Shown: positions 18,130 to 62,757 of the stretch, one piece after another
Layout: every line of letters starts with the position of its first letter
Numbering within the stretch: the stretch's first letter is position 1
From: Escherichia phage T4
DNA: 64,000 bases
Direction: 5' to 3' (one strand)
Sequence record: NC_000866.4
The notes under the pieces: generated by a model
Seen by the model: the letters and a program-made list of their open reading frames with translations, nothing else
Told to the model about the DNA's origin: nothing
The model's database searches: none
Translations under genes and position numbers: made by a program

Positions 18130-18154
18130 TTTGTGTTCCTCATGTTATGTTAGT

Positions 18155-18195
18155 AAGACTACTATAACACAACACGAGGGACTTGTAAACTACAT
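18155..18195 (-). promoter_or_regulatory. T4-type early promoter
   Basis: minus strand GTTTACA (-35), 17-nt spacer, TATAGT (-10). Confidence 0.6.
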
Positions 18196-25350: not shown

Positions 25351-25369
25351 TTTATTCTCCTTTGTTTGT

Positions 25370-25410
25370 GTAAGATAATACTATCACAAAGGAACTATAC
25401 TGTAAACAAC
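25370..25410 (-). promoter_or_regulatory. T4-type early promoter upstream of the 30.7-position ORF
   Basis: minus strand GTTTACA, spacer, TAGTATTAT, then AAGGAG ribosome-binding site. Confidence 0.55.
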
Positions 25411-25436
25411 TTTGTGCAATCTTTGGAAAATAAAAA

Positions 25437-31375: not shown

Positions 31376-31399
31376 AAAGTCCTCATGTTATGTCAGTAA

Positions 31400-31436
31400 G
31401 ACTACTATAACACAACACGAGGGACTTGTAAACAAC

Positions 31437-31438: not shown

Positions 31439-33024
<1,586 letters not shown>

Positions 33025-33051
33025 AATAAAATGGGCCTTGCGGCCCACTCC

Positions 33052-33554
33052 TTAAAAGTATTTTTTAAAACTCATCATAACTTTATCATCAACATCATTA
33101 TCAATCTGTGCAACAAGGTAAGATGACAGTTCTACTTCTTGCGGCGCGGATTGAACATTATCAGAATTAAGATATTCACGAATCCAAGGATATGGATGTT
33201 TAACCGGAGCATCGGTAATTGGGCATGGAAGACCGCACTGTTTCATACGAGATACAGTTAAGTAATCAATAAAGCTCCACATGCTATTTGTATTTAATCC
33301 AGGAACATCACCATCTTTAAATAAATGAACTGCCCAGTCTTTTTCCTGGCGGTTAACTTCCATGAAAATATCAACTGCTTCTTGTTCACACTCTTGGGCA
33401 ATTTTAACCCATTCATCACCATCAGTACCGGATTGAAGTTGACGAATAATATATTGGGTGCCTTTAAGGTGAAGCTGTTCATCACGTGCAATGAACTTCA
33501 TAATCTTGGCATTACCTTCCATGATTTCCATGTTCTTATGGAAGTTAAAGGTAC
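33052..33554 (-). CDS. nrdB: Ribonucleotide reductase small subunit NrdB, exon 2
   Basis: C-terminal NrdB sequence (MEGNAKIMKFIARDEQLHL...); 3-prime splice site placed after intron-terminal G so the junction reads VSFA-C-TFNF. Confidence 0.85.
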
Positions 33555-34152
33555 CGTATGTTCGATTGAGCTCGCTAATTCTCAACCCGTTCTCTTATGA
33601 ACTGCTGCATGTTACCATGCAGTCCAGACTATATCACAATCCCGGAGGGATTCTCCCCATTTCGAGTCGCTTGACCCTACGTCCGAAGACTAGTCGTTGA
33701 ACCTTGTTTTGCAATTGTCGCCGTGCCATCGTTTATATGTTGATGGTGATAAATCTTTCTTATCACAATATGGACAATTCAATTGAATTCTATTTGGATT
33801 TAATTTACATCTGTCATTATGTTTTAGATAAAATCCAGGACCTTTACCAATGTGACCACAGAAATCACATGTGATTTCTTTTTGTGCAGGATGGGTCCCG
33901 TTCTTAACCATTTCTAATGTTTTTGCTGATGTTCTTTTCTTATGTTCTTCCATCAGAATCTTTAGGTATAGGTCCGTTAGCATCTATCCAAATTTTTCTA
34001 TAGTTCAATTGTGCATCCTCTTAAAAGTATAATCATATTTATATTATACTAATTAAAGGTGCAAGCAAAACCTTGGCTGCTAGTTTTCCATAAAGGACTT
34101 TCCAGCAATTAAAGGAGTTTTCGATAAACGTTACCGTTTAAAGGCGCATTTT
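33555..34152 (-). mobile_element. Group I self-splicing intron in nrdB (598 nt)
   Basis: in-frame stop immediately after exon 1; exon 1 ends in U and intron ends in G; core blocks shared with the td intron; contains an endonuclease-remnant ORF. Confidence 0.85.
33690..33983 (-). pseudogene. I-TevIII: Truncated intron endonuclease remnant (I-TevIII-like)
   Basis: 97-aa intron ORF with CxxC...CxxC zinc-finger-like motifs and no recognisable nuclease domain. Confidence 0.7.
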
Positions 34153-38643: not shown

Positions 38644-39660
38644 CATTATGTTCAGATAAGGTCGTTAATCTTACCCCGGAATTATATCCAGCTGCATGTC
38701 ACCATGCAGAGCAGACTATATCTCCAACTTGTTAAAGCAAGTTGTCTATCGTTTCGAGTCACTTGACCCTACTCCCCAAAGGGATAGTCGTTAGGCATTT
38801 ATGTAGAACCAATTCCATTTATCAGATTTTACACGATAAGTAACTAATCCAGACGAAATTTTAAAATGTCTAGCTGCATCTGCTGCACAATCAAAAATAA
38901 CCCCATCACATGAAATCTTTTTAATATTACTAGGCTTTTTACCTTTCATCTTTTCTGATATTTTAGATTTAGTTATGTCTGAATGCTTATGATTAAAGAA
39001 TGAATTATTTTCACCTGAACGATTTCTGCATTTACTACAAGTATAAGCAGAAGTTTGTATGCGAACACCGCACTTACAAAACTTATGGGTTTCTGGATTC
39101 CAACGCCCGTTTTTACTTCCGGGTTTACTGTAAAGAGCTTTCCGACCATCAGGTCCAAGTTTAAGCATCTTAGCTTTAACAGTTTCAGAACGTTTCTTAA
39201 TAATTTCTTCTTTTAATGGATGCGTAGAACATGTATCACCAAACGTTGCATCAGCAATATTGTATCCATTAATTTTAGAATTAAGCTCTTTAATCCAAAA
39301 ATTTTCTCGTTCAATAATCAAATCTTTCTCATATGGAATTTCTTCCAAAATAGAACATTCAAACACATTACCATGTTTGTTAAAAGACCTCTGAAGTTTT
39401 ATAGAAGAATGGCATCCTTTTTCTAAATCTTTAAAATGCCTCTTCCATCTCTTTTCAAAATCTTTAGCACTTCCTACATATACTTTATTGTTTAAAGTAT
39501 TTTTAATCTGATAAATTCCGCTTTTCATAAATACCTCTTTAAATATAGAAGTATTTATTAAAGGGCAAGTCCTACAATTTAGCACGGGATTGTCTACTAG
39601 AGAGGTTCCCCGTTTAGATAGATTACAAGTATAAGTCACCTTATACTCAGGCCTCAATTA
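38644..39660 (-). mobile_element. Group I self-splicing intron in td (about 1.0 kb) carrying I-TevI
   Basis: intron begins UAAUUGAGGCCUGAGUAUAAGGUGACUUAUACUUG right after exon 1 and ends ...AACAUAAUG before exon 2. Confidence 0.92.
38791..39528 (-). CDS. I-TevI: Intron-encoded GIY-YIG homing endonuclease I-TevI
   Basis: 245 aa from ATG at 39528, N-terminus MKSGIYQIKNTLNNKVYVGSAKDFEKRWKRH; track ORF extended 43 codons upstream into intron sequence. Confidence 0.93.
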   Translation of the reverse strand: MKSGIYQIKNTLNNKVYVGSAKDFEKRWKRHFKDLEKGCHSSIKLQRSFNKHGNVFECSILEEIPYEKDLIIERENFWIKELNSKINGYNIADATFGDTCSTHPLKEEIIKKRSETVKAKMLKLGPDGRKALYSKPGSKNGRWNPETHKFCKCGVRIQTSAYTCSKCRNRSGENNSFFNHKHSDITKSKISEKMKGKKPSNIKKISCDGVIFDCAADAARHFKISSGLVTYRVKSDKWNWFYINA

Positions 39661-41180: not shown

Positions 41181-41204
41181 TTTCTTTTCTCCATTAGTTT
41201 TGAT

Positions 41205-41245
41205 AGGGTAATAGTATCACACTACTACCCTGATGTAAACTACTT
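41205..41245 (-). promoter_or_regulatory. T4-type early promoter
   Basis: minus strand GTTTACA, spacer, GATACTAT. Confidence 0.5.
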
Positions 41246-41641
41246 TTTGAAAGTTTTTCGCAAAAGTTCAATGATTTCATCTACATTGTTTTCGTCAACA
41301 ATGCAGTGAATTTTTGTTACGCCAGAAACCTTGTCTTTGACTTCATCTTCTTCAGAAGTCGGTTCTTTATATTCGCGGAAACAATAAAACTCTTCTTCAC
41401 TAAGTTCAAAATAATCATCACCCATACCATCATCATTATAGATTTCACCATTAGCACAAATGATTTCGGTTACATAATCAAAGCCATCTAAACTTGATAT
41501 TGATTTAACTTCAAACCAACCGCCATTTTCTTGAATGATGCCGACCATACTAGCATTTGATGAACTAATATCAATGAAAGATTTAATACGATGTGGATTT
41601 AACTCGTATTTTTTGCCGATTTCCATTTTGATTTTCCTCAT
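41240..41641 (-). CDS. hypothetical protein (frd.2 position)
   Basis: 133-aa acidic ORF. Confidence 0.6.
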   Translation of the reverse strand: MRKIKMEIGKKYELNPHRIKSFIDISSSNASMVGIIQENGGWFEVKSISSLDGFDYVTEIICANGEIYNDDGMGDDYFELSEEEFYCFREYKEPTSEEDEVKDKVSGVTKIHCIVDENNVDEIIELLRKTFKK

Positions 41642-41899: not shown

Positions 41900-41934
41900 A
41901 TTATTTTCCTCTTTAATTATTAGCAGTATTGCCG

Positions 41935-41995
41935 ATAGTTGTATAGTACCATAAAGCTTTATGCTTGTAAACCGTTTTGTGAAAAAATTTTTAAA
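41935..41995 (-). promoter_or_regulatory. T4-type early promoter with A/T-rich upstream element
   Basis: minus strand AAAATTTTTTCACAAAACGGTTTACA, 17 nt, TACTATAC. Confidence 0.6.
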
Positions 41996-42002
41996 ATAAA
42001 AA

Positions 42003-42021
42003 AGGGGACCTCTAGGGTCCC
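42003..42021 (-). terminator. Rho-independent terminator after gene 32
   Basis: GGGGACC-ctaga-GGTCCCC followed by UUUUUUAUUUU on minus strand. Confidence 0.7.
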
Positions 42022-42044
42022 CAATTAATTAGTAATATAATCTA

Positions 42045-58699: not shown

Positions 58700-58732
58700 T
58701 TTCTAATCTCCGTAATTCTGTATCAGTAGTTG

Positions 58733-58795
58733 ATAGTTGTATAGTACCACAGTATGCTTTGGTTGTAAACCGTTTTGTGAAAAAATTTTTAAAAT
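58733..58795 (-). promoter_or_regulatory. T4-type early promoter upstream of motA
   Basis: minus strand AAAATTTTTTCACAAAACGGTTTACA, 17 nt, TACTATAC; near-identical to the element at 41935-41995. Confidence 0.6.
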
Positions 58796-58800
58796 AAAAA

Positions 58801-58820
58801 AGGGAGAGCCTCGGCTCTCC
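58801..58820 (-). terminator. Rho-independent terminator downstream of gene 52 region
   Basis: GGGAGAGCC...GGCTCTCCC hairpin followed on minus strand by UUUUUUAUUUU. Confidence 0.65.
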
Positions 58821-58826
58821 CTAAAA

Positions 58827-58976
58827 TTACTGCATGACTGTGATAACTGTCATGATAACACGTTGAATTCCGAACGCAAGAAGACCTCCTGCTACGGCTG
58901 GAACAACGCCTAAACCCGCCAGTAAAATGCTACCAGATACTAATGCAGCGCTTGTAATACCAATGAATGGACTCAT
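58827..58976 (-). CDS. small hydrophobic membrane peptide (hand-read ORF)
   Basis: 49-aa ORF MSPFIGITSAALVSGSILLAGLGVVPAVAGGLLAFGIQRVIMTVITVMQ; start overlaps gene 52 stop. Confidence 0.4.
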   Translation of the reverse strand: MSPFIGITSAALVSGSILLAGLGVVPAVAGGLLAFGIQRVIMTVITVMQ

Positions 58977-61846: not shown

Positions 61847-61867
61847 TTTCTGTTCCTCCATAGTTGA

Positions 61868-61908
61868 TAGGGTAATAGTACCACGGAAGAACAGTCTTGT
61901 AAACAACT
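61868..61908 (-). promoter_or_regulatory. T4-type early promoter
   Basis: minus strand GTTTACA, spacer, TACTATTAC. Confidence 0.55.
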
Positions 61909-62147
61909 TTTTTAAAAATATTCGTAATAAATGTGAATACCAACTACTACCGCTGAAACCTGTGCAACCCACCACGCACAAGCAATAAGTACAGAATTCA
62001 AAATTTTCATAATAACCTCATTACAAAAGTAAATGTTAAACAAATTACTGGAATACTAATTAACCAAACAAAACACCACCATAATGAACTCATAGTTCAA
62101 TCTCAGCGATTTTCATTTTATTCTCCAAATCCGTATCAGTAGTTGAT

Positions 62148-62195
62148 AGTTGTATAGTACCACGGTCCTTGTGGTATGTAAACTGTTTTGTGAAA
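62148..62195 (-). promoter_or_regulatory. T4-type early promoter immediately downstream of denB
   Basis: minus strand CACAAAACAGTTTACA, spacer, TACTATAC; shares a 31-nt identical block with 58718-58748. Confidence 0.55.
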
Positions 62196-62199
62196 TTTT

Positions 62200-62757
62200 T
62201 TAAATGGAAAGATACCATCCGTTGTAGTTGCTTTTTCTTACAACTTTACGAAGGTCTTCTCTGTCACCGATGAACTTCGGAGTGTACTGGATGACACCTG
62301 GATGAATTTCTTTAGTGTTGAATATAATTATACAGTCAGCGACTTGATGATTTAGAATGGGCCCTAGATTTATTCCAGAACCATATGGATACTCTCCGCT
62401 GCATCCCGTTGTTACCGAAATCCAACGTGAGTCAGTTTGATGTGTCTTAACTTCTACACGAAGCCCGCAGTATTTTGGATGAGCCAATACATCCCATGCA
62501 TATGTGTACGGATCATCGACATCCTCTTGGCCTTTATTGACATATCCACTCAACCAATCTGCCACAAAAAACTCTGCGTACACAGCGATACGGCATCTTT
62601 CGATAACTTCTGCCTTATCTTGATTTGGGTTTTGTTTTAAAGAGTATCTTGCAGTATCAGCAATTTTGACCTTCATTTCACAGGTCAAGTCACTGTTCGA
62701 TAGGGTAAATGTCGGAATCTGAAATAGTCTCTGTAACCCAGGATTCGTTTTCTGCAT
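62200..62757 (-). CDS. denB: Endonuclease IV
   Basis: 185-aa ORF at the T4 denB position. Confidence 0.8.
   Translation of the reverse strand: MQKTNPGLQRLFQIPTFTLSNSDLTCEMKVKIADTARYSLKQNPNQDKAEVIERCRIAVYAEFFVADWLSGYVNKGQEDVDDPYTYAWDVLAHPKYCGLRVEVKTHQTDSRWISVTTGCSGEYPYGSGINLGPILNHQVADCIIIFNTKEIHPGVIQYTPKFIGDREDLRKVVRKSNYNGWYLSI

What the first reader, a model, noticed from the sequence alone, without database searches (positions are those of the whole stretch)
33590..33710. Sequence blocks shared between the nrdB and td introns
Minus-strand blocks are nearly identical between the two introns. Region 33601-33700 carries GCTGCATGTTACCATGCAG, CAGACTATATC, TTTCGAGTCGCTTGACCCTAC and TAGTCGTT. Region 38681-38790 carries GCTGCATGTCACCATGCAG, CAGACTATATC, TTTCGAGTCACTTGACCCTAC and TAGTCGTT. 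These probably correspond to conserved catalytic-core pairings and are potential substrates for intron-intron recombination.
Basis: seen in the sequence. Interest (0 to 1): 0.3.

Follow-up and report, generated by a model that had tools for sequence, protein, structure and literature searches.

The report
Shared core blocks of T4 introns
The two short look-alike stretches are the conserved ribozyme-core segments of phage T4's well-studied self-splicing introns in the nrdB and td genes, a textbook case described in 1988–1989, so the finding is correct but ordinary.

Summary
The window is phage T4 (100% identity). All four quoted blocks occur exactly where stated, once in the nrdB intron (window 34152–33555, minus strand, 598 nt) and once in the td intron (39660–38644, 1017 nt). 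No single block beats chance: the longest exact match is 11 nt, against up to 13 nt in shuffles. The collinear cluster does: local alignment score 64 versus 24±2.8. A covariance model built only from 16 non-T4 phage introns finds exactly these two sites in 64 kb (99 and 97.9 bits). A 19-intron alignment with covariation maps the blocks to J6/7 + P7 5' strand, the P7.2 hairpin, J8/7 + P7 3' strand, and the P9 hairpin with its GNRA loop. The blocks are family-wide, not specific to td and nrdB: T4 sunY, Staphylococcus phage Twort and many others carry them, and 611 phage records match the nrdB core. As recombination substrates they are direct repeats about 5.09 kb apart but short. Published work (Hall, Liu & Shub 1989) already reports recombination between T4's self-splicing introns. 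None of 50,697 phage records carries the hybrid junction predicted for a crossover in the J8/7–P7' block. Verdict: observation confirmed, interpretation essentially right, already known.

The parts
33555..34152 (-). nrdB group I intron (598 nt), from the first base after exon-1 ...GCGU to the terminal G
   Evidence: Removing it gives an uninterrupted 388-aa NrdB. T4 annotation shows nrdB as a two-piece join.
38644..39660 (-). td group I intron (1017 nt in this window; 1016 nt in other T4 records)
   Evidence: Removing it gives a 286-aa thymidylate synthase. The extra T is near 39568.
33601..33698 (-). nrdB intron 3' core, P7 to P9, containing all four blocks
   Evidence: Model R1, built from 16 non-T4 introns, scores 97.9 bits, E 3.8e-19. 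Rfam Intron_gpI scores 35.7 bits, E 2e-7.
38688..38792 (-). td intron 3' core, P7 to P9, containing all four blocks
   Evidence: Model R1 scores 99 bits, E 2.2e-19. Rfam Intron_gpI scores 40.3 bits, E 1e-7.
33691..33698 (-). Block AACGACUA in nrdB: J6/7 plus P7 5' strand (GACUA)
   Evidence: P7 pairs are 100% paired in 19 introns, with one compensatory UA>CG change.
38785..38792 (-). Block AACGACUA in td: J6/7 plus P7 5' strand
   Evidence: It aligns to the Rfam consensus AaAGACUA.
33660..33680 (-). Block GUAGGGUCAAGCGACUCGAAA in nrdB: P7.2 hairpin (GGGUC/GACUC, loop AAGC) with its flanking junctions
   Evidence: Four of the 5 P7.2 pairs show compensatory changes across the family.
38752..38772 (-). 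Block GUAGGGUCAAGUGACUCGAAA in td: P7.2 hairpin (loop AAGU)
   Evidence: The single td/nrdB mismatch is in the loop.
33625..33635 (-). Block GAUAUAGUCUG in nrdB: J8/7 plus P7 3' strand (UAGUC)
   Evidence: It aligns to the Rfam consensus GAUAUAGUCu.
38712..38722 (-). Block GAUAUAGUCUG in td: J8/7 plus P7 3' strand
33604..33622 (-). Block CUGCAUGGUAACAUGCAGC in nrdB: P9 hairpin, 7-bp stem, GUAA tetraloop
   Evidence: P9 is 100% paired, and 4 of 7 pairs show compensatory changes in the family.
38691..38709 (-). Block CUGCAUGGUGACAUGCAGC in td: P9 hairpin, GUGA tetraloop
   Evidence: The single mismatch to nrdB is in the loop.
33653..33658 (-). nrdB P3 3' strand GGGGAG, which pairs with CUCCUU at 34112-34117
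   Evidence: 6/6 pairs within nrdB but only 4/6 with the td 5' strand.
38745..38750 (-). td P3 3' strand GAUAGA, which pairs with UCUAUC at 39617-39622
   Evidence: 6/6 pairs within td but only 3/6 with the nrdB 5' strand.
33690..33983 (-). Truncated I-TevIII ORF (97 aa) inside the nrdB intron; its stop codon overlaps the P7 5' strand
38791..39528 (-). I-TevI ORF (245 aa) inside the td intron; its TAA stop overlaps the first 2 nt of the AACGACUA block

Best explanation
The shared blocks are the sequence-conserved parts of the ribozyme 3' half of two homologous group I (subgroup IA2-type) self-splicing introns of phage T4. They comprise both strands of P7 with the J6/7 and J8/7 junctions (the guanosine-binding catalytic centre), the IA-specific P7.2 hairpin, and the P9 hairpin with its GNRA loop. 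They stay nearly identical because selection acts on the RNA's fold and chemistry. Helices that only need to pair (P3, P7.1, P8, P9.2) have drifted apart through compensatory changes, and the loop-resident endonuclease ORFs are unrelated. At the DNA level the blocks are direct repeats about 5.09 kb apart on the same strand. A rare unequal crossover in them would delete td exon 2, nrdA.2, nrdA.1, nrdA, mobE and nrdB exon 1, leaving a hybrid intron between td exon 1 and nrdB exon 2. Shown here: positions, helix assignment, family-wide conservation and the geometry of the deletion. Inferred: only crossovers in the J8/7-P7'-P9 stretch would keep every helix matched. Crossovers in the AACGACUA or P7.2 blocks would pair one intron's P3 5' strand with the other's P3 3' strand and break P3.
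For: The window is T4, and the annotation shows nrdB and td as two-piece joins with I-TevIII and I-TevI inside. Intron removal restores both reading frames. The blocks are exact and unique, apart from the 8-mer. Only the 3' ~145 nt align, far above shuffled controls. Rfam Intron_gpI aligns both regions with E ~1e-7 and places the blocks on J6/7-P7, J8/7-P7' and P9. In a 19-intron alignment, 87.9% of cells are paired versus 72.4% when shuffled and ~40% when slid; 25 of 36 pairs show double changes; 0 of 500 shuffles reach the observed values. RNAalifold independently predicts P7, P7.1, P7.2, P8 and P9. Family agreement with the td residue is 0.81-0.98 inside the blocks versus 0.45 outside. Both td/nrdB mismatches inside the blocks lie in hairpin loops. 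T4 sunY and Twort share the blocks; Twort I2 is 21/21 identical to td in P7.2. The nrdB core matches 611 phage records. A model trained without T4 sequences hits only these two sites. P3 strands are compatible only within each intron. The predicted deletion is 5087-5094 bp. Literature: Shub et al. [quoted passage not shown]' (reference list) and Hall, Liu & Shub 1989.
Against: Neither intron reaches Rfam's gathering score (40.3 and 35.7 versus 50). This is explained by the ORFs that split the core, since relatives with an unsplit core score 64-105 bits. P7 itself is almost invariant, so covariation says little about it (one compensatory case). The nrdB 3' segment folded alone does not form P7 in its minimum-energy structure. 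No sequenced phage carries the hybrid junction predicted for a crossover in the J8/7-P7' block. The homology is well below the ~50 bp quoted for efficient T4 recombination. The primary papers could not be read, so the published crossover points are unverified here.
Confidence: 0.93

Rival explanations
1. The near-identity reflects recent DNA exchange (gene conversion or concerted evolution) between the two T4 introns rather than selection on the RNA.
For: T4 recombines avidly, and recombination between its introns has been reported (Hall 1989). The three T4 introns are each 57/59 identical to one another inside the blocks.
Against: The same blocks are as well conserved in unrelated phages of Gram-positive hosts: Twort I2 matches td 8/8, 21/21 and 11/11 in three of the blocks. 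Identity collapses immediately outside the blocks (37/79-37/89). A conversion tract would not stop at helix boundaries or leave P3 and P8 fully diverged with compensatory changes.
Confidence: 0.04
2. The blocks are DNA-level signals, such as endonuclease recognition or regulatory sites, or are constrained by the overlapping endonuclease ORFs.
For: The I-TevIII stop codon lies inside AACGACTAG, and the I-TevI stop overlaps the first two bases of that block.
Against: Only the first block touches an ORF, and the two ORFs are unrelated proteins (GIY-YIG versus H-N-H). ORF-less relatives keep the same blocks. The compensatory pairing pattern is an RNA signature.
Confidence: 0.02
3. The similarity is chance similarity in AT-rich DNA.
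For: Individual exact matches (11 nt or less) are no longer than the best matches in shuffled sequence. TAGTCGTT occurs three more times in the window.
Against: The collinear cluster scores 64 against a shuffle maximum of 34. An independent model finds only these two sites, with E ~1e-19.
Confidence: 0.01

Closest known systems
Phage T4 td, nrdB and nrdD (sunY) group I introns, as compared in Shub et al. [quoted passage not shown]
   Same: These are the same objects. The window is 100% identical to T4 across nrdB, and the shared elements are the ones that make the three introns 'homologous'. sunY carries all four blocks.
   Different: Nothing of substance differs. This window's td intron has one extra T near 39568 compared with the other T4 records.
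[quoted passage not shown]
   Same: The direct-repeat geometry found here (5087-5094 bp apart, same strand) is what such a deletion requires.
   Different: The paper's text was not available, so its crossover points could not be matched to the blocks. My calculation says td exon 1 joined to nrdB exon 2 would be out of frame, giving a 201-aa product. No such junction is present among 50,697 phage records.
Staphylococcus phage Twort orf142 introns and other phage IA2-type introns (DNA polymerase, RNR, endolysin, recA, terminase and connector genes)
   Same: They have the same P7/P7.1/P7.2/P8/P9 architecture and nearly the same block sequences. They pass Rfam Intron_gpI at 64-105 bits.
   Different: They sit in different host genes and phage families. 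Many lack an ORF or carry it elsewhere. P9.1 in most of them resembles nrdB rather than T4 td.

Membership tests
Group I intron (Rfam RF00028 Intron_gpI) | Score at or above Rfam's curated gathering threshold (50 bits) | tested here: inconclusive
   td scores 40.3 bits (E 1e-7) and nrdB 35.7 bits (E 2e-7), both below 50. The model cannot bridge the ~740-nt and ~300-nt ORF inserts that separate the 5' and 3' core halves. Relatives with an unsplit core score 64-105 bits.
Group I intron | P7 helix flanked by conserved J6/7 and J8/7, enclosing P3'/P8 | tested here: met
   P7 (GACUA/UAGUC) is 100% paired in 19 introns with one compensatory change. The J8/7 sequence GAUAUAGUC is nearly invariant. 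RNAalifold predicts the same nesting.
Group I intron | P3 pairing that joins the 5' and 3' halves | tested here: met
   td UCUAUC/GAUAGA and nrdB CUCCUU/GGGGAG are each 6/6 paired within their own intron, and cross-combinations are mismatched. This rests on complementarity in two sequences only.
Group I intron | Exon 1 ends in U (U.G in P1), the intron ends in G, and precise excision restores the host ORF | tested here: met
   Exon 1 ends in ...GCGT (nrdB) and ...GGGT (td). The introns end in ...ATACG and ...ATAATG. The spliced ORFs give 388 aa and 286 aa. The P1 partners GCGC and GCCU were read directly from the sequence.
Group I intron | Guanosine-initiated self-splicing | not testable with these tools
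Subgroup IA (IA2-type) | Extra hairpins P7.1 and P7.2 between P7 and P3' | tested here: met
   Both hairpins are present in td and nrdB. For P7.1, 4 of 4 pairs show compensatory changes; for P7.2, 4 of 5 do. PMC3984707 lists P7.1/P7.2 among the class-defining peripheral elements.
Subgroup IA2 specifically (versus IA1 or IA3) | The full set of subgroup criteria, including features of the 5' half (P2, P4-P6) and P9 extensions | not tested
   Only the 3' half was modelled. The IA2 label for the T4 introns rests on my recollection of Michel & Westhof 1990 and on the T4T annotation's 'group 1A intron'.
Substrate for efficient homologous recombination in T4 | About 50 bp or more of homology | tested here: not met
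   The longest exact match is 11 nt. The best ungapped stretch is 31/38. There are 76 identities over the 98/105-nt core, with gaps. The ~50 bp figure comes from PMC4177764, citing Singer et al. 1982. This predicts rare events, not impossible ones.
Substrate for deletion by unequal crossover | Repeats in direct orientation on one molecule | tested here: met
   Both copies are on the minus strand, with start-to-start spacing of 5087 bp.
Substrate for deletion by unequal crossover | Recombinant junction observed in sequenced genomes | tested here: not met
   No phage record covers at least 80% of the td-5'/nrdB-3' hybrid built for a crossover in the J8/7-P7' block, in one place. The experimental demonstration exists only in the literature (Hall 1989).

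The most novel reading that the evidence does not exclude
The invariant blocks, especially the J8/7-P7'-P9 stretch, may serve in nature as crossover points at which 3' domains (P9-P9.2 plus the 3' splice site) are swapped between introns in different genes and different phages. Phage group I introns would then be mosaics rather than units that evolve as a whole. A hint is the Pseudomonas phage PspYZU05 td intron. It is td-like up to P9 (I-TevI end, P3' strand, P9 with GUGA loop), but its P9.1-P9.2 is nearly the same as T4 nrdB's.
Probability: 0.12. Interest if true: 0.3.

Novelty: already known. Interest (0 to 1): 0.07.

Why it matters
It matters little as a discovery. The homology among the three T4 introns and the recombination between them were published in 1988-1989, and they are part of the classic case that group I introns share a conserved catalytic core and can mediate exon shuffling. 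The check is still useful in two practical ways. First, a default Rfam scan reports no intron at all in this window, because the endonuclease ORFs split the cores. Short conserved blocks like these, or a core-only model, are therefore a more sensitive way to flag ORF-bearing phage introns. Second, the helix map predicts which crossover points would give a splicing-competent hybrid (J8/7-P7'-P9) and which would not (upstream of P3').

Tried and rejected
1. The Rfam gathering-threshold scan of the whole window found no hits. Relaxed scans were needed.
2. Testing each block's exact match for significance on its own failed, because 11-mers are within the shuffle range. I switched to the collinear alignment score and an independent covariance model.
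3. I tried to read Shub 1988 (PMC279724), Miller 2003 (PMC150520), Landthaler & Shub 1999 (PMC22036) and Sandegren & Sjoberg 2004. None is held. Only citations and one descriptive sentence were recovered. Bryk & Belfort 1990 (domain shuffling between T4 introns) was not found in the library and is cited from memory only.
4. I searched for a natural td/nrdB hybrid junction in 50,697 phage records and found none.
5. Single-sequence folding of the nrdB 3' segment does not form P7. I relied on the comparative structure instead.
6. I considered reading the PspYZU05 mosaic as evidence of td x nrdB exchange. I rejected it as specific evidence because the nrdB-type P9.1 is the family consensus and T4 td is the outlier.
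7. Weak Rfam matches (L20_leader, snoRNAs, rseX and others) were dismissed as chance, with E values of 1-10 and scores far below their gathering thresholds.

Full report
**Identity of the window.** The region around the finding is 100% identical to phage T4. In the T4T record the stretch carries denA, nrdB (a two-piece join with the truncated I-TevIII ORF inside), mobE, nrdA, nrdA.1, nrdA.2, td (a two-piece join with I-TevI inside) and frd, all on the minus strand. I fixed the intron boundaries by translation. Removing window 34152-33555 (598 nt) gives a 388-aa NrdB reading ...FYVSFACTFNF.... Removing 39660-38644 (1017 nt) gives a 286-aa thymidylate synthase reading ...[14 protein letters not shown].... 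Both exon 1 segments end in U and both introns end in G, as expected for group I introns.

**Check of the observation.** Every quoted string is present exactly once per intron at the stated places. The 19-mer, the 11-mer and the 21-mer occur nowhere else in the 64 kb, and 0-0.03 matches are expected by chance. The 8-mer TAGTCGTT also occurs at three unrelated sites (5 found versus 1.6 expected), so alone it is uninformative. The strings are written as the plus strand reads; the RNA sense is their reverse complement. The last td block ends at 38792, not 38790.

**Significance.** The longest exact match between the introns is only 11 nt, and mono-shuffled controls give 9.9 on average and up to 13. 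No single block is significant by length. The signal lies in the collinear cluster:
- A local alignment joins only the 3' ~145 nt of the introns, with score 64 against 24 +/- 2.8 (maximum 34) in 200 shuffles.
- Identity is 57/59 inside the blocks and 37/89 outside.
- Identity is 76 positions over the 98/105-nt P7-P9 core.
- The ORF-containing middles and the 5' ~130 nt do not align.

**What the blocks are.** A default Rfam scan of the window reports nothing. With relaxed thresholds, Intron_gpI matches td at 38692-38922 (40.3 bits, E 1e-7) and nrdB at 33605-33845 (35.7 bits, E 2e-7), both below the 50-bit gathering score. In those alignments:
- AACGACUA lies on the consensus AaAGACUA.
- GAUAUAGUCU lies on GAUAUAGUCu.
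- The 19-mer lies on the terminal hairpin with a GNRA-type loop.
- The 21-mer falls in an insertion relative to the general consensus.

The low scores come from the endonuclease ORFs that split the cores. Relatives whose cores are unsplit score far higher: T4 sunY 105 bits, the three Twort orf142 introns 64-101 bits, and others 64-104 bits.

**Helix assignment tested by comparison.** A blastn search with the nrdB 3' core found 611 phage records from Escherichia, Staphylococcus, Pseudomonas, Pectobacterium, Yersinia, Bacillus, Vibrio, Enterococcus and other hosts. I fetched 18 loci. The cores sit between the halves of split genes: DNA polymerase, td, nrdD, RNR large subunit, endolysin, recA, terminase and head-tail connector. 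I then aligned 19 cores and projected an explicit helix map from td:
- 87.9% of cells form standard pairs, against 72.4% for shuffled partners and 36-43% for slid partners.
- 25 of 36 pairs show changes on both sides, and none of 500 shuffles reaches any observed measure.
- P7.1, P7.2, P8 and P9 all carry compensatory changes.
- P7 is invariant except for one UA>CG double change.
- RNAalifold independently predicts P7, P7.1, P7.2, P8 and P9 with the same pairs.
- Folded alone, the td 3' segment reproduces P7 through P9.2.

The resulting map is:
- AACGACUA = J6/7 + P7 5' strand.
- GUAGGGUCAAGYGACUCGAAA = P7.2 hairpin with its junctions.
- GAUAUAGUCUG = J8/7 + P7 3' strand.
- CUGCAUGGURACAUGCAGC = P9 with a GUAA (nrdB) or GUGA (td) tetraloop.

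The only two td/nrdB differences inside the blocks are loop positions. P7 holds the guanosine-binding pocket, and P7.1/P7.2 are class-defining extras (PMC3984707).

**The blocks are family-wide.** Across the 16 non-T4 introns, agreement with the td residue is 0.98, 0.81, 0.95 and 0.81 in the four blocks, versus 0.45 elsewhere. T4 sunY is 57/59 identical to td in the blocks. Twort intron 2 is 8/8, 21/21 and 11/11 identical in three of them. A covariance model built only from the 16 non-T4 sequences finds exactly two hits in the whole window on both strands: 38688-38792 (99 bits, E 2e-19) and 33601-33698 (97.9 bits, E 4e-19). This argues for purifying selection on the ribozyme and against recent exchange between the two T4 copies.

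**Recombination.**
- Geometry: the copies are direct repeats 5087-5094 bp apart. Unequal crossover would delete td exon 2, nrdA.2, nrdA.1, nrdA, mobE and nrdB exon 1, and leave a 1012-1019-nt hybrid intron.
- Reading frame: td exon 1 ends in phase 0 and nrdB exon 2 starts in phase 1, so by my calculation the spliced fusion would be out of frame, giving 201 aa.
- Helix compatibility: P3 pairs across the two halves, as UCUAUC/GAUAGA in td and CUCCUU/GGGGAG in nrdB. Crossovers in the AACGACUA or P7.2 blocks would therefore create a mismatched P3, whereas crossovers in the J8/7-P7'-P9 stretch (31/38 identical) keep every helix matched. This is inference.
- Expected frequency: the homology is far shorter than the ~50 bp quoted for efficient T4 recombination (PMC4177764 citing Singer 1982), so events should be rare.
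- Database evidence: none of 50,697 phage records carries the td-5'/nrdB-3' hybrid junction built for a crossover in the J8/7-P7' block.
- Published demonstration: Hall, Liu & Shub 1989 (cited). [quoted passage not shown] I could not read the primary paper. My recollection that the hybrid was td/nrdB and splicing-proficient, and that Bryk & Belfort 1990 described domain shuffling between T4 introns, rests on memory.

**Comparison with what is known, and verdict.** These are the T4 td and nrdB introns themselves. Their homology is the subject of Shub et al. 1988 (title), and their recombination is the subject of Hall et al. 1989. Novelty: already known. Interest: low.

Noticed in passing
window ~39568 (td intron position 92/93, minus strand): This window's td intron has one extra T (GGACTTGCCC versus GGACTGCCC). 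That makes it 1017 nt, whereas T4T and the T4-like records listed in the td-intron search align to 1016 nt. The extra base lies in the P6 region upstream of the I-TevI ORF, which is intact (245 aa). It may be a strain variant or a sequencing difference.
   Followed up: partly
window 33690-33692 and 38791-38793: Both endonuclease ORFs run into the ribozyme core. The I-TevIII stop codon TAG lies inside the P7 5' strand / start of P7.1, and the I-TevI stop TAA overlaps the first two bases of the AACGACUA block.
   Followed up: yes
window 1-64000 (Rfam scan); L002, L003, L004, L013: The default Rfam gathering-threshold scan reports no group I intron in a window that contains two classic ones, because the ORF inserts split the cores. 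ORF-free relatives score 64-105 bits. This is a systematic blind spot for ORF-bearing introns.
   Followed up: yes
L011 (Pseudomonas phage PspYZU05 td intron), about 190-378: The intron is td-like at the I-TevI 3' end, the P3 3' strand and P9. Its P9.1-P9.2 is nearly the same as T4 nrdB's and the family consensus, so T4 td is the outlier for P9.1. This could reflect domain exchange or simply divergence in T4 td.
   Followed up: partly
L003 about 1195-1215 (Twort orf142 intron 3) and L019 about 275-295 (Enterococcus phage phiEF17H recA intron): A second copy of the J6/7-P7 motif (GAGUAACGACUAGGA) sits in the loop of P8 in these two introns, in addition to the real one ~110 nt upstream.
   Followed up: no
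window 18137-18193 and 31380-31436: A 57-nt direct repeat is 96% identical between the two sites. Read on the minus strand it looks like a T4 early promoter (GTTTACA ... TATAGT) followed by a Shine-Dalgarno sequence. The second copy lies in the alc-rnlA intergenic region.
   Followed up: no
window 41916-42031, 58714-58829, 62127-62206, 61864-61927, 41200-41263, 25367-25430: A family of 64-98-nt repeats (GATAGTTGTATAGTACCAC...TGTAAAC...) is 63-83% identical. Two copies are followed by GC-rich hairpins and T runs. They are probably promoter/terminator cassettes read on the minus strand and are unrelated to the introns.
   Followed up: no
window 33017-33060 (minus strand, just after the nrdB stop codon): The GC-rich hairpin GGGCCGCAAGGCCC is followed by a U-rich run and looks like a terminator after nrdB. 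It produced a spurious weak match to the Rfam L20_leader family (21.9 bits versus 58.7 needed).
   Followed up: no
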